A stretch of DNA of 64,000 bases from Dehalococcoidia bacterium (GTDB taxonomy: Bacteria > Chloroflexota > Dehalococcoidia > Lucifugimonadales > SAR202-VII-2). The DNA is taken from the NCBI GenBank assembly GCA_965263165.1, contig OZ253584.1:1138401-1202400 (forward strand), in the 5' to 3' direction. Below, piece after piece: positions 5,330 through 55,093 of the stretch (position 1 is its first letter; each line of letters starts with the position of its first letter). The position numbers and the translations under genes are program-made. Under the pieces are notes generated by a model. The model was given only the letters and a program-made list of their open reading frames with translations. It made no database searches and was not told the DNA's origin.

Positions 5330-5670
5330 GTTTGTGCGTAAAGGCGTGACTGCCAGTGAAGGAGCGGCGCCAGCGGCGTAGCTAATCCGGCACACCCGGG
5401 CGTCACAGTTGCCACGCCTCCGGCACGGTTCGCGACGCCTTTGTCCACTTTCCAGCCGGCCCCCGAAGCGAGGTGTCCCGTAGCCGTCGCGTAGCCGGGA
5501 CCTTGCGTCGCACAAGGAATGGGCCGCCAGGCCACTGCTTGACCATCTGCTTTTCCGCCTTCCATATGCCCTATACCCTGCAACTCGCTGCATCCCGGCT
5601 CCAAGAGAGAGTGGGCCGCTGGCCCACTGCTTGACGATACTCTAGCACAAATGTCCTTATTCTGCAAGAG
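5330..5670 (-). repeat. Solo divergent copy (U5) of the repeated promoter cassette
   Basis: Minus strand TTGCAG-17bp-TAGAGT followed by GTGGGCCAGCGGCCC...TTGGAGCC, matching the leaders at 18504-18585 and 53720-53802. Confidence 0.65.
5639..5667 (-). promoter_or_regulatory. Sigma70 promoter with LexA-like box (cassette U5)
   Basis: TTGCAG aataaGGACatttGTGC TAGAGT; 17 bp spacer and extended -10 TG. Confidence 0.55.
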
Positions 5671-5704
5671 GGAGGGGGCCGGCGGCGGCTTGTTCAGAGC
5701 ATCC

Positions 5705-16567: not shown

Positions 16568-17758
16568 GGAGACCTTTGCGTAACCAAGGCAGGTGGGGCG
16601 AGAATGTAGCCATCCGAGGAAGTCCGGAGAGTACAGATGCATCGTCAGATGGGTCAGACGTCACTAGCAGAATCGCTGTTGCCGCAGTCGCTTGGAAGAA
16701 ACGAGCGTCTGGAGCGAATCGGCGAGGAGGTGGACTGGGAACGATTCGCCTTTCTGGTGGGGGGAGTCTACTCGGCCGATGAAGGGAGACCCAGTTATCC
16801 TCCGTTGATGATGGTCAAGGTACTGCTGCTGGAGCAGTGGTACAACCTGTCTGACCCGCAGATGGAAGAGGCACTCGGAGACCGCATATCGTTCCGTCGC
16901 TTTGTGGGGCTTGGGCTTCAGGACGAGACCCCTGACTACTCGACGATCAGCCGCTTTCGGACCGAGCTGGTCAAGCATGGGCTGAGTGAGGAGCTTTTCA
17001 AGGAGCTGGAAGTCCAACTGGACAAGCGCGGACTGGTATTGAAGGAGGGGACGTTGATGGACGCCACGCTGGTAGAGGCCCAAGTGCGTCGTCCACCCCT
17101 CGCTGCGGGACGTGGCGCCAAGAGTGCTACCGACCCCGATGCTGACTGGACGCGCCACCGTGGGAGTCGGGCGCACTTCGGCTACAAGGTGCATCTGGGT
17201 GTGGATGCAGGGACGGGGCTGGTGCGCAAGGGGATGCTGACGCCGGCCAAGGTCTATGAGAGCGAGGTGGCCGATGCGCTGGTGAGCGGTGACGAGGTGG
17301 CGGTGTACGGTGACCGCGCCTATGAGTCCAACAGGCGGCGTCGGTGGCTCACGTCTCATGGGATCAACGATCGGATCATGCACCGTTCCCACAAGCATCA
17401 ACCGGAGTTACCGCATTGGCAGAAGCGACGCAACGCGTTGATACGTCCGCGGCGGGCGTTGGTGGAGAAGGTCTTCGGCACCCTCAAGCGCAGCTACGGC
17501 TATAGCCGTGTCCGCTACCGGGGTTTGGGACGCAACGCCGTGGAGATGTGGTTCAAGCTGATGGCCTACAACTTGCGGAGGATGACCAAGTTGGCTGATT
17601 GCGCTGCCTGAACCACTGTGTAGGAGCAGTCCCGGGGGAGCCGCCACACCGGGACGCGCAGTGGGTGGCCTGAACCGCCCTGGATGCGGTTCCGTGAACT
17701 TCTTTTCCGTGCTGGCGGACCAATCGAAGGCTACACCCAGAGTTGCTCAAAGGTCTCC
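16568..17758 (+). mobile_element. IS5-family (IS1106-like ends) insertion sequence inserted in a REP loop
   Basis: IRs GGAGACCTTTG(C/A)G(T/C)AAC; target duplication GACTAC at 16562-16567 and 17759-17764 (or 8 bp CGACTACG if the IR starts one base inward). Confidence 0.92.
16637..17611 (+). CDS. IS5-family DDE transposase
   Basis: GRPSYP, LEQWYNLSDPQMEE, PDYSTISRFR, MDATLV, GDRAY and VEKVFGTLK motifs. Confidence 0.96.
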   Translation: MHRQMGQTSLAESLLPQSLGRNERLERIGEEVDWERFAFLVGGVYSADEGRPSYPPLMMVKVLLLEQWYNLSDPQMEEALGDRISFRRFVGLGLQDETPDYSTISRFRTELVKHGLSEELFKELEVQLDKRGLVLKEGTLMDATLVEAQVRRPPLAAGRGAKSATDPDADWTRHRGSRAHFGYKVHLGVDAGTGLVRKGMLTPAKVYESEVADALVSGDEVAVYGDRAYESNRRRRWLTSHGINDRIMHRSHKHQPELPHWQKRRNALIRPRRALVEKVFGTLKRSYGYSRVRYRGLGRNAVEMWFKLMAYNLRRMTKLADCAA

Positions 17759-17921
17759 GACTACGGGGGCAGGTTAGGAAGGAGATCCCAATCCCTGTAC
17801 CCAAAAACGTCGGAGGGTGGATCGGGTGGGACAACGGCGCAGGCCAAGCCGGACCCTTCGCTGAAGGACGACGCAGGCCACAACAAGACCATCCGCCCAG
17901 GAAGAACCCCGCCAACCCCCC

Positions 17922-17950
17922 TTGCAAAATGCGAACGATTGTGCTAGAGT
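17922..17950 (+). promoter_or_regulatory. Sigma70 promoter with LexA-like box (U1)
   Basis: TTGCAA aatgcGAACgattGTGC TAGAGT. Confidence 0.65.
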
Positions 17951-18503
17951 GCCCCCATAAACCCTGCCGCATACAGGTGGACTGGGGGAATCCATAGCGA
18001 GACCCCCTGGGCAGGAGGGTCTGGGAACGTTCCCCAGGCCCGCATCCACCCGAGGAAGGTTGGGACCCGAGCGCATGCCGTTGTATGGCACAGGCTCCTT
18101 GGAGCCATCCGGCTCAGCGACGGATGCGCGACGGCTAACGACGGATCCGCGACGGATGCGCGACGGCTTAACGACGGGTAAACGACGGATAGACGACGGC
18201 TCCGTGCCTGAAACCCCGAAATTCGGCTGAAAAACTTAACAACATACAATCAAAGACTGTCCCCGTACCCGTACCCGGGGGCAGGCTGGGAAGCGTCCCG
18301 ATGCGCCAACGCAAGCTCGCGACCGACGCCGCGCAGGGTGCAGGGGGCGCAGCCCCCGCCGGGGGTACAGGGGGAGTCCCCCTGTACCCCAAAACGTTGG
18401 AGGGTGGGCAGGTGGGACAACGGCGTAGGCCAAAGCAGACCCTCCGCCGAAGGAGGGCGCAAGCCAAAACAAATCCATCCGCCCAGGTTATGCCCCACCC
18501 CCA

Positions 18504-18532
18504 TTGCGAAATCAGAACAAATGTGCTATAGT
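18504..18532 (+). promoter_or_regulatory. Sigma70 promoter with LexA-like box (U2)
   Basis: TTGCGA aatcaGAACaaatGTGC TATAGT. Confidence 0.65.
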
Positions 18533-19039
18533 ACCCATGAAATGGGCCACCGGCCCGCTTCTCTTCCTTGGAGCCTGCCGCATACATCTTGGACAGGGGG
18601 CTAACCATAGAGAAGCCTCCTGTGGCGGCGCATCTGGGAAACGTCCCTCAGACCCACGACCGTCCGAAGAAAGGCGAGACCAGTGCCAATGCCGTTTCCA
18701 GACAAGCCCCTTGCAGCCGCGCGGCTCCGCCGCGGTTCGCTGCGCTTCAGCGACAACTGCACGACGGTCCATCACAGCTCGCTGACGGCTCCTGACGCCT
18801 TGGTGACGCCATTGTGACGGCTCCGTGCCTGGAAACCCCCGAAATCCGGCAGAGAAATATTACACATACAATCAAAGGAACAACATTCAATCAAAGGCGG
18901 CGCCGCATCTGTCCCCAAAGGCCCTACCCCGGGAACTGCCGGCGGCGGGCGGCCCACTCCACCACGTCCCTTGCGCGGGACGGGTCGAAGCTTTCCTCCA
19001 CCCACGTGAAGATGGAGACCGTGGACGGACGCTTCCGCC

Positions 19040-43130: not shown

Positions 43131-44536
43131 GGGTTCGCGTCCCGCAAATTAGTGATTGGTTGAAAGCTGCCGTCGCTGCCAATCGCGGTCAGAAAGACCG
43201 CGTCCGAGCCTTGGTTGTCGCCGTCCCCATAGCGAAGCTCGAACCCATCGATGTCGACGACATCGACGCCGCGCAGGCTGGCCAAGAAGCTCTCCCTGTC
43301 TACTTCCCGGCCGCACCTTTCCAGGCCGGCGATGGCCAAACGGCCAGCGAGGTAACCCTCGAAGGAGACGAAACCTGGAACAGCGTCGGCCTCGTAAGCA
43401 GATAGCGCGCGCAGGTAGGTTTGGACAACGGGGAGGGAGTCGTCCTTGGGGGATGGCACCACCTGGGTAACGAAGACCCCCGCCCCATCGGGGCCCAACT
43501 CTTGGGCCAATGCGTTGCTTCCCACGAAAGAGACGGTCATAAAGATGGGGTCCATGCCGATCTGCAGTGACCAGGAGACCACACTTGCAACCGGCTCGTA
43601 TGCTCCGATCATTATGACCGCCTCCGGGTCCCCTTCTCTCAGATCTAACACAGCCGTCCTGACCGCCGTCGTGTTGCGCGGATACACCCCAATTGCCACG
43701 GGCTCCATACCGCGCCTGTCCAGGGCAAGCTGCACTCCAAGGAATCCGGCGCGTCCAAAGGAGTCGTCCTGGTACAGCACGGCAATCCTCGCGACGCCAA
43801 GGTCTCCTATCAAGCGCGCCACCATCTCCTCGGTCTCCTGGTAGTAGGAAGCTCGCAGGTTCACCACGTAGTCCATCTCTTCGCCCCGCAGAAACTCAGC
43901 GCCGGTGAAGGGGGCGATGTAGGGGACATTGGCGTCCTCGGTGATGGGGGTGGCGGACCGGGACGTTGGCGTGCCTACGGCGCCAATTAGGGCAAAGACC
44001 CTTTCCTCTTCGATGAGGCTGATGGTGTTGGCGATAGCGGACTCTGGCTCATAGGCATCATCGACGGACGAGAGTTCCAGCAGCCGGCCATGGACGCCGC
44101 CGCGTTGATTGGCTTCGTAGAAAGCTGCCTCAATCCCAAGCCGCATGCCCTTGCCTAGCTCCTGGGCAGGGCCGCTGAAGGCAGCGGACTGGCCGAAGAG
44201 GATGCGGTCGTTGGTGATGCCGTGCTGCGCCACCCCATTGCTGGTGGGCGTGCCGCTGGCCTGGGGCCCGTTGCCGTTGTCCACGCCACTGCTTTCCGTT
44301 GGGCTCTGAGGAGTGGAGGTGTTGCATGCCAGCAAACACACGGAGAACGCGAGGGCAAGGATTAGCCAGCCCCGTCTCGGGATCGGGGGGGTGGGTTTGA
44401 TTGTTTGTGGGTCGCGTGCGGTTTTTTGTTGGGGGGAGGGATTAGCTTCGGGCGGCGCGTGGAGGATGCTCCGTCGCGGGGATGGATGGGCTTTAACAGA
44501 TAGGGCCGGTGGGTTTTGATTGTTTGTGGGTTGCAT
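43127..44536 (-). CDS. Type 1 periplasmic binding lipoprotein (LivJ/Leu-binding family); true start probably downstream of 44536
   Basis: Lipobox LLAC, ILFGQSAAFSGP, DDAYEP, NLRASY, YQDDSFG and FEGYLAG motifs; overlaps kinase start. Confidence 0.85.
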   Translation of the reverse strand: MQPTNNQNPPALSVKAHPSPRRSILHAPPEANPSPQQKTARDPQTIKPTPPIPRRGWLILALAFSVCLLACNTSTPQSPTESSGVDNGNGPQASGTPTSNGVAQHGITNDRILFGQSAAFSGPAQELGKGMRLGIEAAFYEANQRGGVHGRLLELSSVDDAYEPESAIANTISLIEEERVFALIGAVGTPTSRSATPITEDANVPYIAPFTGAEFLRGEEMDYVVNLRASYYQETEEMVARLIGDLGVARIAVLYQDDSFGRAGFLGVQLALDRRGMEPVAIGVYPRNTTAVRTAVLDLREGDPEAVIMIGAYEPVASVVSWSLQIGMDPIFMTVSFVGSNALAQELGPDGAGVFVTQVVPSPKDDSLPVVQTYLRALSAYEADAVPGFVSFEGYLAGRLAIAGLERCGREVDRESFLASLRGVDVVDIDGFELRYGDGDNQGSDAVFLTAIGSDGSFQPITNLRDANP

Positions 44537-44560
44537 GCGTTTTTTGCTGGGGGGTTGGCA
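44395..44560 (-). repeat. Two imperfect direct repeats of about 45 bp ending in ACAAACAATCAAA
   Basis: CCCCCCAGCAAAAAACGCATGCAACCCACAAACAATCAAA and CCCCCCAACAAAAAACCGCACGCGACCCACAAACAATCAAA. Confidence 0.7.
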
Positions 44561-44980
44561 TCAGGAGGCCCTGTGGGTTACGAGGGTCAGGTGGTTCTTG
44601 CCGTGCTCGCGGCGGTAGCGGAGGTCGTCCATGAGGGTGCGGACGAGATAGACGCCGAGGCCGCCGATGCGTCTATCCTCGATGGAGGCGTCGAGGTCTG
44701 GGGTCGGGGCGTCATGGAGGGGATCGAAGGGGGGCCCGCCGTCGATGATTTCGATGGTGACGGCGTCATCGTCGGAGGTGAGGACGATATCGATGTCGCA
44801 GGGGCCGCCATCGTAGCCGTAGTCCATGATGTTGAGGCCGAGCTCTTCGAGGGCGAGGTTGACGCGGAAGAGGAGGGCGTCGGGCCAACGTTCGCGTCTG
44901 CCGAGGTCCTCCACGGCGTCGGTGATGGCGGCCAACTCGTCGCGGCCGGAGGTGAGTTTCAGGGCAACGGTTGCGGCCAT
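44561..44980 (-). CDS. RsbW-like anti-sigma factor/Ser kinase (HATPase_c_2)
   Basis: LALEELGLNIMDYGY, IIDGGPPFDP and RRIGGLGVYLVRTLMD motifs. Confidence 0.92.
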   Translation of the reverse strand: MAATVALKLTSGRDELAAITDAVEDLGRRERWPDALLFRVNLALEELGLNIMDYGYDGGPCDIDIVLTSDDDAVTIEIIDGGPPFDPLHDAPTPDLDASIEDRRIGGLGVYLVRTLMDDLRYRREHGKNHLTLVTHRAS

Positions 44981-46289: not shown

Positions 46290-46312
46290 GGGGGGGGGGG
46301 GGGGGGGGGGGG
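46290..46312. repeat. 23-nt G homopolymer
   Basis: G run 3 bp from the STAS-gene stop codon, next to a REP-like hairpin at about 46250-46280. Confidence 0.85.
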
Positions 46313-53380: not shown

Positions 53381-53773
53381 CCCGGCCTCAGCCTCGTTCT
53401 TTGATTGTTTGTGACTCTTTGATTGTTTGTGCGCCTGCTATTTCTTCTCCCGTAGGCGTGGAGCCGTTACAAAGGCGTTACAAGCCGTTACAAAGCTGTT
53501 ACGAGTCGTTACGGAGCCGTTACCAGTCGTTACTAGTCGTTACGGAGCCGTTACCAATCCTGCGAGCCGTTACGGAGTTGGGCGGCTCTAAAGAGCCTGT
53601 GCCTTACAGCGGCATTCTCTTCGGTCCCAGCCATCCTCGGAGGGTCTTGCCCCTTGGGGTGTTCCCTCAGCGCCCCTGCCACAGGGGGACTCTCCATGGT
53701 GAGCCCCCAATACCTACGTTATGCGGCAGGCTCCGAGAAAGAGAAGCGGGCCTGGGCCCACTTCATTGGGGGC

Positions 53774-53802
53774 ACTATAGCACACCCGTTCGTATTTTGC
53801 AA
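53774..53802 (-). promoter_or_regulatory. Sigma70 promoter with LexA-like box (U3)
   Basis: TTGCAA aatacGAACgggtGTGC TATAGT. Confidence 0.65.
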
Positions 53803-54322
53803 TGGGGTGATGGCATAACCTGGGCGGATGGATTTGTTTTGGCTTGCGCCCTCCTTCGGCGGAGGGTCTGCTTTGGCCTACGCCGTTGTCCCACCTGCCC
53901 ACCCTCCAACGTTTTGGGGTACAGGGGGACTCCCCCTGTACCCCCGGCGGGGGCTGCGCCCCCTGCACCCTGCGCGGCGTCGGTCGCGAGCTTGCGTTGG
54001 CGCATCGGGACGCTTCCCAGCCTGCCCCCGGGTACGGGTACGGGGACAGTCTTTGATTGTATGTTGTTAAGTTTTTCAGCCGAATTTCGGGGTTTCAGGC
54101 ACGGAGCCGTCGTTTACCCGTCGTTTACCCGTCGTTAGCCGTCGCGCATCCGTCGCTGAGCCGGATGGCTCCAGGGAGCCTGTGCCATACAACGGCAGTC
54201 GGTCGGGTCCCAACCTTCCTCGGGTGGATGCGGGCCTGGGGAACGTTCCCAGACCCTCCTGCCCAGGGGGTCTCGCTATGGATTCCCCCAGTCCACCTGT
54301 ATGCGGCAGGGTTTATAGGGAT

Positions 54323-54351
54323 ACTCTAGCACAATCGTTCGTATTTTGCAA
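54323..54351 (-). promoter_or_regulatory. Sigma70 promoter with LexA-like box (U4)
   Basis: TTGCAA aatacGAACgattGTGC TAGAGT. Confidence 0.65.
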
Positions 54352-55093
54352 TAGGGGGTGGCGCTTCCTGGACGGAGGGGCTTGTTGCGGCCAGCGCCCT
54401 GGTTCAACGGAGGGTCTGGCTTGGCCTGCGCCGCTATCCCGCCCGCTCCGCCCTCCGGCGTTTTTAGAAACAGGGGAACTCCCCCTGTACCCCCAGCGGG
54501 GGCTGCGCCCCCTGCACCCCGCTTGGGGAACGGAGGTGAGGCGTAGCCAGGGGAAGAGGGATAGGGACCGTTGCGAAGCGCGATCTAGCGCGGTCACAGC
54601 GCGGTGATAGCCCAGTCAAGCGCGGTCATAGCCCCGACAGAACGGAGGTGAGGCGTTACCGTTGCGAAGCCGAGGTGTGATGCGGTGATAGCCCAGTCAA
54701 GCGCGGTCATAGCCCCGACAGCCGTTAGGCCGAGGTGTGATGGATTGTTCCCCGCCCGCGCCGCCCTCCGACGTTTCTCAGAACAGGGGCAGCCCCTGTA
54801 ACCGGCCGCCAAACGCCCACGGTAAGTGTAGTACACTCAGGGGGCTGGTCAATCTGGCAACAGGGACAACCTGCAACGCTGACCTCGTGTTCAATGAAGC
54901 GCGTTCGGCTGACCCCGTGCACATCGAGCTGGCCGGACGAATCATGCAAGACCTGCTCGGCCTTCGTGAAGATGCCGTGTCCGCCGTGGGCAGGCTACGG
55001 ATACTGTGCTGGCCAGCGACCCGCCTGTTCATGGGTCCAAAGAGTCAGCGTAAGTGGCTTAAGATGCCAAGCAGATAGTTGAGGCGTGAGTGA

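What the first reader, a model, noticed from the sequence alone, without database searches (positions are those of the whole stretch)
18115..18205. Helically phased microrepeat arrays whose core differs between copies while the 10-11 bp period is kept
Seen: U1 has 8 GACGG cores spaced 11,10,11,11,11,11,11. U4 (54107-54156) has 5. U2 (18745-18825) has (C/T)GAC(G/A)-type cores at 10-11 bp. U3 (53460-53575) has 10 GTTAC cores spaced 11,10,11,10,11,10,10,11,19. The region 54575-54720 has a degenerate GACC/CACC version. Established: B-DNA pitch is about 10.5 bp, and arrays such as plasmid R1 parC (ten 11 bp repeats) are cooperative protein-loading sites. Inference: period rather than sequence is conserved, suggesting a one-face protein-binding or bending array, or slippage-driven spacer tuning.
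Basis: partly seen in the sequence, partly recalled or inferred. Interest (0 to 1): 0.62.

Follow-up and report, generated by a model that had tools for sequence, protein, structure and literature searches.

The report
Phased repeat arrays of terminase-leader cassettes
The 10-11 bp repeat arrays are real and belong to a roughly 400-600 bp element copied more than 120 times in this uncultured Dehalococcoidia genome; in its complete form it sits just upstream of phage DNA-packaging (terminase) genes, so the arrays are most likely one-face docking sites for the packaging recognition protein.

Summary
U1 has 8 GACGG cores spaced 11,10,11,11,11,11,11; U4 has 5; U3 has 10. The arrays are not independent. 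They are the repeat module of one cassette: promoter, a conserved domain of about 190 nt, the array, a conserved box and a tail. It occurs 123 times (112 loci) in this genome and often in a sister species.

Over 136 arrays, unit steps are almost only 10 (310) or 11 (392). Mean period is 10.58 ± 0.10 bp, and cores stay about 0.8 bp from a 10.5-bp lattice.

Sequence is conserved too. The unit consensus is cGT-N-ACGgcTc, and families differ mainly at one "address" base.

In three intact and 20-35 decayed copies, the cassette lies directly upstream of a zinc-ribbon ORF that overlaps a large terminase gene.

Best reading (about 0.45): DNA docking arrays for a ring-shaped small-terminase-like protein, as in SPP1 pacL. 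Most copies, including the window's four, would be orphans.

Rivals: a repeat-tailed leader or non-coding RNA (0.2); an inherited minisatellite with no present function (0.2).

The parts
17793..17913 (+). Module A: a repeat of about 100-150 bp that precedes each cassette. It also occurs alone, in tandem, and on both sides of the full terS-terL units.
   Evidence: Inverted and direct repeat families I3, I4 and D2; genome BLAST; flanks of units E1-E3.
17922..17950 (+). U1 promoter-like site: TTGCAA, 17 nt, TAGAGT, with a TGn extension and GAAC-N4-GTGC in the spacer.
   Evidence: Sequence; over 90% conserved in the consensus of 123 copies. The same promoter type precedes the single terS-terL operon of species G001.
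17957..18114 (+). U1 conserved 5' domain (about 160-190 nt), ending in the hairpin GGAGCCATCCGGCTC.
   Evidence: nhmmer finds 123 near full-length copies. No coding signal. The RNAalifold structure is stable but has almost no covariation.
18115..18208 (+). U1 array: 8 units with core (G/A)CGACGG at steps 11,10,11,11,11,11,11, closed by GGCTCCGTGCC.
   Evidence: family F3.
18209..18255 (+). U1 conserved box TGAAACCCCGAAATTCGGCTGA and tail ...CTTAACAACATACAATCAAAG.
   Evidence: The box is nearly invariant across array families. The ACAATCAAAG motif lies mostly in cassette tails: 101 of 128 hits.
18333..18487 (+). GC-rich palindromes and module A ahead of U2.
   Evidence: Repeat families D2, I1 and I5.
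18504..18532 (+). U2 promoter-like site: TTGCGA, 17 nt, TATAGT, with TG before the -10 element.
   Evidence: Consensus scan hit.
18540..18744 (+). U2 5' domain.
   Evidence: nhmmer copy at genome position 1156915.
18745..18829 (+). U2 array of family F5: cores ...ACGACG, ATCACA, CTGACG, CTGACG, GTGACG, GTGACG at 10-11 bp, closed by GGCTCCGTGCC.
18830..18895 (+). U2 box and tail, with two CAATCAAAG motifs.
53395..53459 (-). U3 tail of the alternative type: ...CCTACGGGAGAAGAAATAGCAGGCGCACAAACAATCAAAGAGTCACAAACAATCAAAG.
   Evidence: copy 1192192.
53460..53575 (-). U3 array of family F1: 10 or more GTAACG units (GTTAC on the + strand) alternating between 10 and 11 bp.
   Evidence: (period 21, 5.5 copies).
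53576..53805 (-). U3 5' domain and promoter.
   Evidence: (D4).
54045..54106 (-). U4 tail, box and closing motif.
   Evidence: 96% complementary to the U1 region (I1).
54107..54156 (-). U4 array of family F3: 5 CGACGG units, in a cassette otherwise 93-96% identical to U1, which has 8 units.
   Evidence: (I1, I2).
54157..54352 (-). U4 5' domain and promoter.
   Evidence: I2, D4.
5636..5677 (-). Solo remnant of the cassette promoter.
   Evidence: Direct repeat family D4.

Best explanation
The arrays are the repeat module of a lineage-specific cassette that began as the control and recognition region of a phage-type DNA-packaging operon. In complete units the order is: module A; a sigma70-type promoter; a domain of about 190 nt; 5-11 units of cGT-N-ACGgcTc spaced 10 or 11 bp apart (70-100 bp in all); a conserved box; a tail that in three families carries one inverted copy of the core; a zinc-ribbon protein in the small-terminase position; and the large terminase. 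I infer that the zinc-ribbon protein forms an oligomer that reads one unit per helical turn on one face of the DNA. The array would then wrap it, as proposed for SPP1/SF6 pacL and small terminase, and recruit TerL for cleavage or regulation at the adjacent box. The single family-specific base before ACG would be the specificity determinant matched by diverged TerS paralogues. That would explain why the geometry (period) stays fixed while the core differs. Most copies, including all four in the window, have lost the genes and are orphan sites. What is shown: the anatomy, copy number, phasing, homology of the arrays and adjacency to terS-like and terL genes. What is inferred: protein binding, wrapping, the specificity code, and any activity of the orphan copies.
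For: Phasing: steps of 10 (310) or 11 (392) against 9 (4) and 12 (17). Mean period is 10.58 ± 0.095 bp in 54 arrays, and cores stay a median 0.77 bp from a 10.5-bp lattice. A roughly even mix of 10 and 11 is needed for DNA phasing; I know of no need for it in RNA.

Context: three intact units (E1 140.25-142.75 kb, E2 2952.1-2954.5 kb, E3 3020.5-3023.3 kb) have the cassette directly upstream of a zinc-ribbon ORF that overlaps a 428-aa terminase (Terminase_6N 7.7e-29, Terminase_6C 7.1e-15, PHROG TerL families). About 20 further zinc-ORF remnants follow other cassettes. A portal gene lies 2.4 kb after the E1 terL.

Protein divergence: the TerS-like proteins are 55-61% identical to one another while the TerL copies are 91-92% identical. 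Each variant sits behind a different array family.

Co-absence: species G001 has the same promoter, terS-like C-terminal domain, terL and portal, but has no array, and I could not find a zinc ribbon in the short stretch before the conserved C-terminal part of its terS-like gene, which is frameshifted or differently organised there.

Core switching: the unit consensus is shared, only position -1 switches by family, and spacers such as GCTTG / CCTTTG / GCTCC keep their order between the GTAACG and GTGACG arrays. The tail carries the inverted core in three families: 30 of 33 (nominally; two of the three exceptions are mis-set tail windows that fall inside the array), 32 of 35, and locus L137.

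[quoted passage not shown] Adjacent HTH motifs of TerS rings lie about one B-DNA turn apart, and segments of about 100 bp are described as ideal for wrapping (PMC4737164).
Against: The zinc-ribbon protein has no detectable similarity to any TerS family (no Pfam hit; one marginal PHROG hit), and its AlphaFold model is unusable at pLDDT 55.7. Its TerS role therefore rests only on gene position.

About 85 of 123 cassettes, including the four in the window, have no terminase genes. Orthologous cassettes in the sister species diverge more than their flanks (arrays 82%, domain 89.5%, flanks 96%), with unit gains, unit losses and family replacement. Solo copies are therefore not under visible purifying selection.

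The CGACG family (U1, U4) has no inverted core in its tail.

Only 1 of about 75 related viral terL loci shows a comparable array. The terS-terL modules of G001 and G023 lack such arrays.

In SF6 the isolated TerS DNA-binding domain showed little specificity for the pac repeats (PMC4737164).

The array lies inside a probable transcript, so an RNA-level role is not excluded.
Confidence: 0.45

Rival explanations
1. RNA-level function. Each cassette is a gene for a leader or non-coding RNA: a conserved promoter launches a folded 5' domain followed by a single-stranded tandem array that binds a protein or another nucleic acid. Possible roles are a sponge, autoregulation of terS translation, or pairing of the tail with array cores.
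For: A near-consensus sigma70 promoter with an extended -10 is over 90% conserved in 123 copies, and the array always lies downstream in the same orientation. A thermodynamically coherent nested structure is predicted: CUUCCUxGGA with UCCGAGGAAG, enclosing CUGCCGCA with UGUGGCAG. A variable hairpin keeps its stem through A-U to C-G changes in minor families. The tail complements the core in three families, as expected for base pairing. There is no coding signal.
Against: Covariation is almost absent: the covariation term is -0.2 kcal/mol, 1 of 22 pairs shows a double change, and A·C mismatches are about as common as G·U pairs. Tail-to-array pairing is no better for a copy's own array than for other arrays of the same family, and it is absent in the CGACG and weak in the TGAC families of this genome. 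No Rfam family matches. An RNA role does not explain why units are held to a 10/11 mix averaging 10.6. Transcription could not be tested.
Confidence: 0.2
2. Inherited minisatellite with no present function. One ancestral array of 10-11 bp units hitch-hiked in a proliferating or decaying repeat element. The period is kept only by descent, and the cores differ through mutation plus slippage or gene-conversion homogenisation.
For: All arrays are homologous. Unit number changes quickly: 8 against 5 units between the near-identical U1 and U4, and there are many unit indels between species. Higher-order periods of 21 and 33 indicate block duplications. Orthologous solo copies evolve at least as fast as their flanks.
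Against: Steps of 9 and 12 are rare (21 of about 800) although 10 and 11 are both common. Drift from an 11-bp unit should give 12 as often as 10. The address base changes in every unit while the differing spacers keep their order, which whole-unit homogenisation does not produce. The inverted core in the tail changes in step in three families. Cassette loci are spaced more evenly than random: CV 0.71 against 0.84-0.99.
Confidence: 0.2
3. Cis-acting ends or binding sites for the element's own mobility: subterminal repeats for a transposase or recombinase, possibly the TerL-type nuclease-ATPase itself.
For: The near-identical unit within a young subfamily is a discrete block of about 395 bp running from the promoter to the tail. 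Cassettes at orthologous sites can belong to different families. Another family of the same order (genome G023) holds 12 or more intact terS-terL two-gene modules but only one portal gene.
Against: No terminal inverted repeats or target-site duplications were found at the cassette ends, though this was only partly examined. No transposase or recombinase gene travels with the cassette. TerL-driven transposition has no precedent that I know of.
Confidence: 0.07

Closest known systems
Small-terminase recognition regions of pac and cos phages (SPP1/SF6 pacL-pacC-pacR; lambda cosB R sites)
   Same: Sets of direct repeats lie between the promoter and the start of the small-terminase gene. About 100 bp of DNA is thought to wrap a TerS ring whose DNA-binding domains lie about one helical turn apart (PMC4737164). 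Here 70-100 bp arrays with a 10.58-bp period sit between a promoter and a terS-position gene that overlaps terL.
   Different: There are up to 11 contiguous, near-identical units rather than a few boxes. The putative reader has a zinc ribbon instead of a helix-turn-helix. A conserved domain of about 190 nt lies between promoter and array. The unit is copied more than 120 times, mostly without the genes. Binding and cleavage are untested.
Plasmid R1 parC / ParR centromere (ten 11-bp iterons), and related TubR-tubC and pSK41 parC arrays
   Different: There is no parM, parR or other partition gene next to any copy examined. The arrays are chromosomal, in 123 copies, and the archetype belongs to a terminase operon.
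Protein-sponge RNAs with repeated motifs (CsrB/RsmZ type)
   Same: A promoter-driven non-coding region carrying many copies of one short motif.
   Different: The motifs are not predicted to sit in hairpin loops. No Rfam family matches. No partner protein is known and transcription is untested.
Modular intergenic repeats (pneumococcal BOX A-Bn-C, REP/BIME, Correia elements)
   Same: Many dispersed intergenic copies built from modules, one of which varies in number (own knowledge).
   Different: There is no sequence similarity. The cassette carries a full promoter and a helically phased microrepeat, and it derives from a gene-bearing unit.

Membership tests
Terminase (TerS) recognition site, pac/cosB type | Lies next to or overlapping the terS-terL genes | tested here: met
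   Met for three intact units and about 20-35 decayed units. Not met for the window's own U1-U4, which are orphan copies.
Terminase (TerS) recognition site, pac/cosB type | Repeated or bent DNA of about 100 bp, phased with the helix | tested here: met
   Period 10.58 ± 0.095 bp. Core span is 72 bp at the median and up to about 96 bp.
Terminase (TerS) recognition site, pac/cosB type | The adjacent small protein is a small terminase | tested here: inconclusive
   It occupies the right position and overlaps terL, but it has no Pfam hit, only a marginal PHROG hit, and an AlphaFold model at pLDDT 55.7.
Terminase (TerS) recognition site, pac/cosB type | Bound by TerS and used as the start of packaging or cleavage | not testable with these tools
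   This needs footprinting or virion-DNA end mapping.
ParR/parC-type plasmid centromere | Tandem 10-12 bp iterons | tested here: met
ParR/parC-type plasmid centromere | Part of a partition operon (parM/parR or equivalent) on the replicon it segregates | tested here: not met
   The neighbours are the terS-like and terL genes, or unrelated convergent genes. The arrays lie at 112 chromosomal loci.
Described RNA families (Rfam 15) | Match to a curated covariance model | tested here: not met
   No hit at gathering score in the window. Only chance-level hits at E up to 5 in 17600-19000.
Structured non-coding RNA in general | Base pairs supported by compensatory changes | tested here: inconclusive
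   Of 22 predicted pairs, 1 shows double changes, and the covariation term is -0.2 kcal/mol. The copies are too similar to decide.
MITE or IS-derived repeat | Terminal inverted repeats and target-site duplication | tested here: inconclusive
   None was seen at the ends of the 395-bp core unit, but no clean empty site was recovered.

The most novel reading that the evidence does not exclude
The roughly 112 evenly spaced orphan cassettes are working packaging-initiation sites. A conserved, chromosomally dispersed head-packaging gene set is present: terS-like and terL in three copies, one portal, and prohead protease, HK97 capsid, adaptor and tail terminator about 50 kb away. It would act as a gene-transfer-agent-like system driven by a promoter with a LexA-box-like spacer. 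Several TerS paralogues would each read one address-base family of arrays, so that headful packaging can start about every 27 kb around the chromosome.
Probability: 0.12. Interest if true: 0.9.

Novelty: new variant of a known kind. Interest (0 to 1): 0.6.

Why it matters
If the arrays are TerS docking sites, they would be an unusually clear natural example of a one-unit-per-helical-turn recognition platform. A single base would set specificity, which could be tested directly with three paralogous proteins from one genome. The spread of such sites to more than 100 evenly spaced chromosomal loci would bear on how host DNA is chosen for transduction or GTA-like transfer in an uncultured lineage. 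So would the finding of many terS-terL modules beside a single portal gene in a second family of the same order. If the cassettes are instead RNA genes, they would be a new many-copy RNA class. If they are inert relics, the element still makes up about 2% of the genome and will confuse gene callers, which translate the repeats.

Tried and rejected
- Coding potential: the ATG at the predicted transcription start opens frames of very variable length, and variability is equal at all three codon positions, so the region is not coding.
- Fine-scale covariation between each tail and its own array: none was found within families.
- RNA structure from covariation: inconclusive.
- Rfam: nothing.
- Replication-strand bias: none, with 55 of 123 cassettes co-oriented.
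- Ordering of 10- and 11-bp steps to minimise phase drift: only a weak trend, rms 0.35 against 0.40 bp for permuted orders.
- Structure prediction of the zinc-ribbon protein: too poor for a fold search, so none was run.
- Similar arrays upstream of related viral terL genes: found only in L106, which has six 11-bp units.
- The 7-bp repeat upstream of terL in G023: it lies inside a coding region and was dropped.
- Purifying selection on orthologous solo cassettes: not seen.
- My first orthologue pairing was confounded by flanking repeats and was replaced.

Full report
**Observation.**
- U1 has GACGG at 18119, 18130, 18140, 18151, 18162, 18173, 18184 and 18195, giving steps 11,10,11,11,11,11,11.
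- U4 has five CCGTC cores at steps 11,11,10,11.
- U3 has ten GTTAC cores at steps 11,10,11,10,11,10,10,11,19.
- U2 has TGACG-type cores at 10-11 bp.

TRF reports periods of 11, 21/22 and 31/33 at the same places. U1/U2 and U4/U3 belong to a large inverted duplication: arms of 259-368 nt are 93-96% complementary and lie 35 kb apart. In cassette orientation, U3 therefore reads GTAACG and U4 reads CGACGG.

**What the arrays belong to.** BLAST and nhmmer against the whole 3.09-Mb, 63.8% GC genome find about 123 near full-length copies of the region upstream of the arrays. Every copy has the same order of parts:
- a sigma70-type promoter, TTGCAAAAT..GAAC..TGTGCTATAGT, over 90% conserved;
- a conserved domain of about 190 nt;
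- a small hairpin, GGAGCcatcccGCTCC, which is inverted as a whole in some copies;
- the array;
- the closing motif GGCTCC(G/A)(T/C)GCC;
- a nearly invariant box, TGCAAACCCCGAAATCCGGCTGA;
- a tail, which in the solo (gene-less) copies usually ends in ACA(A/T)ACAATCAAAG.

A pattern scan of 185,579 species genomes found the cassette in one other record, a Dehalococcoidia MAG. A search of 40 relatives found it only in that sister species. It was absent from a third species of the genus and from 38 other families of the order. Two further assemblies with the cassette turned up later through the zinc-ribbon protein (L135, L137).

**Phasing in the larger sample.**
- Mean autocorrelation of the 90 nt after the hairpin peaks at lags 11, 10, 21, 22 and 32. 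Shuffled sequences show no preferred lag.
- Inside 136 delimited arrays from both species, steps are 10 (310) or 11 (392). Steps of 9 (4) and 12 (17) are rare. The 8 and 13 steps occur as 21-bp pairs around degenerate cores.
- In 54 arrays with at least six clean steps the mean period is 10.58 ± 0.095 bp. Cores stay a median 0.77 bp from a 10.5-bp lattice.

**Sequence is conserved as well.** Aligning 809 units on the ACG anchor gives the consensus c-G-T-N-A-C-G-g-c-T-c. Position -1 is family-specific: A in 96% of units of the GTAACG family, T in 78% of the TTACG family, and G in the CGACG and GTGACG families. Spacers differ between units of one array, yet they recur in the same order in different families. 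For example, the last units of both GTAACG and GTGACG arrays carry ...GCTTG / CCTTTG / GCTCC. The address base has therefore changed in parallel in all units. Whole-unit slippage alone does not produce that pattern.

In three families the tail carries one inverted copy of the core:
- GTTAC after GTAAC arrays, nominally 30 of 33 (two of the three exceptions are tail windows that fell inside the array);
- GTAAC after TTAC arrays, 32 of 35;
- CGTCAC after GTGACG arrays in L137.

The CGACG family, which includes U1 and U4, has no such copy. Within families there is no finer covariation. Because copies are related by descent, these amount to about three events, not about 60.

**The archetype.** Downstream of a subset of cassettes there is a small ORF, MDYRSRSRRRCYWCARRLPP..YCSGRCRMAAHR. 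It has a C-x2-C ... C-x3-C zinc ribbon and is often decayed. In three places the ORF is intact and overlaps a 428-aa ORF that is a large terminase:
- Pfam Terminase_6N, E = 7.7e-29;
- Pfam Terminase_6C, E = 7.1e-15;
- PHROG TerL families.

The three units of about 2.5 kb (E1-E3) share the order cassette, zinc ORF, terL. They are bracketed by module A repeats.

The terL copies are 91-92% identical, but the zinc-ribbon proteins are only 55-61% identical. Each sits behind a different array family. Other assemblies add a GTAACG-type pair and a GTGACG-type pair.

The only portal gene lies 2.4 kb after the E1 terL. Prohead protease, HK97 capsid, head-tail adaptor and tail terminator lie about 50 kb away. 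TerL and portal are intact and adjacent in all three species of the genus.

The species without cassettes (G001) has the same promoter type ahead of a terS-like C-terminal domain and terL. It has no array, and I could not find a zinc ribbon in the short stretch before the conserved C-terminal part of its terS-like gene, which is frameshifted or differently organised there.

**Best explanation.** The array is a DNA docking platform for the zinc-ribbon protein in the small-terminase position, with one unit per helical turn over 70-100 bp. This matches what is published for SPP1/SF6. [quoted passage not shown] Adjacent DNA-binding motifs of the TerS ring lie about one B-DNA turn apart, and about 100 bp would wrap the ring (PMC4737164).

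This reading explains three things:
- why the period is fixed at about 10.5-10.6 through a mix of 10s and 11s;
- why one address base changes in concert, together with an inverted site beyond the conserved box;
- why the TerS-like proteins diverge much faster than TerL.

Binding, wrapping and the specificity code are inferences.

**Weaknesses.**
- The zinc-ribbon protein has no recognisable TerS homology, and its predicted structure is unusable.
- About 85 cassettes, including the window's four, lack the genes.
- Orthologous cassettes diverge more than their flanks (domain 89.5%, array 82%, flanks 96%), with unit indels and even family replacement. Solo copies therefore look like orphans or are being turned over.
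- Related viral terL loci rarely show such arrays: 1 of about 75, namely L106 with six 11-bp units.

**Rivals.**
- RNA reading. The promoter, the fixed orientation, a stable predicted fold and the tail-core complementarity all fit. Covariation is nearly nil. No Rfam family matches.
- Inert inherited minisatellite. This fits the rapid unit turnover. It does not fit the 10/11 restriction, the parallel address-base switches or the even spacing of loci.
- Role in the element's own mobility. This is speculative. It is kept alive by the discrete 395-bp unit of a young subfamily and by the many terS-terL modules in genome G023.

**Distribution.** Cassette loci show no replication-strand bias. They are more evenly spaced than random: CV 0.71, against 0.99 for random placement and 0.84 with a 4-kb exclusion zone, P about 0.02. 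This observation, together with the conserved dispersed head genes, underlies the boldest reading: that orphan cassettes are working packaging start sites of a GTA-like system. I give that about 12%.

**Earlier notes of this scan.** I read them, after reaching the terminase link. They contain both readings for other copies: a docking platform (e1-2195745) and an RNA gene (e1-2195746). They are leads, not independent evidence.

**Verdict.**
Phased protein-binding arrays remain the best reading, but sequence is conserved too, and the context is a terminase leader, not a parC-like centromere.
- I class it as a new variant of a known kind and score interest at 0.6.

Noticed in passing
whole genome (G000); the window holds 2 of 112 loci: Cassette loci are spaced more evenly than chance: CV of inter-locus distances is 0.71, against 0.99 for random placement and 0.84 with a 4-kb exclusion zone. 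Median spacing is 23 kb.
   Followed up: partly
G023 (same order, different family), e.g. L143 and L146: This 3.4-Mb genome holds 12 or more intact copies of a two-gene terS-like/terL module of about 2.5 kb with its own promoter, but only one portal and one capsid gene. Multicopy terminase modules therefore recur in this order of Dehalococcoidia.
   Followed up: partly
G000 C1:140-146 kb and 194-199 kb (L133, L138): Phage head genes are split between loci: terS-like, terL and portal at one; prohead protease, HK97 capsid, adaptor and tail terminator at another. Host genes surround both. TerL-portal adjacency is conserved and intact in three species, which looks GTA-like or like an old domesticated remnant.
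   Followed up: partly
window 17930-17945, 18512-18527 and all cassette promoters; L142:1121-1150: The promoter spacer carries a conserved GAAC-N4-GTGC, one mismatch from the Gram-positive/Chloroflexi LexA box GAAC-N4-GTTC. The same promoter type precedes the single terS-terL operon of species G001.
   Followed up: no
window 54575-54760: This is a separate repeat module of about 8-10 genomic copies beside cassettes. It has an internal period of about 11/21 bp and an exact 40-nt duplication (54601-54640 and 54682-54721). It is not a degenerate copy of the array.
   Followed up: partly
L106:790-858 (IMG/VR contig 3300000117_000557): Six perfect-to-near-perfect 11-bp units (GGAGTCACACT three times, GGAGTCATACC three times) lie in an intergenic gap 1.3 kb upstream of a related terL (52% identity). 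This is the only such case among about 75 viral loci scanned.
   Followed up: partly
genome-wide; window 44393-44564 and cassette tails: The motif ACAATCAAA(G/C) occurs 128 times. Of these, 101 lie in cassette tails. Several of the rest lie 0-30 nt upstream of start codons, e.g. ACAATCAAAGATG. It contains a TACAAT -10-like hexamer.
   Followed up: no
L007:3400-3900 (sister species): A small element of about 480 bp with inverted ends GGGCCTGTGGACATTTAG...CTAAATGTCCACAGGCCC and a short ORF is inserted beside a cassette in G002 and absent from G000. A unique 70-bp insert also splits that array.
   Followed up: no
window 46290-46312: A run of 23 G, a perfect homopolymer.
   Followed up: no
L003:1746-4416 (sister species): A DNA methyltransferase, a PLD-like nuclease and an IS481-type transposase form an island of about 5 kb next to a cassette in G002. 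The island is absent at the orthologous G000 site.
   Followed up: no
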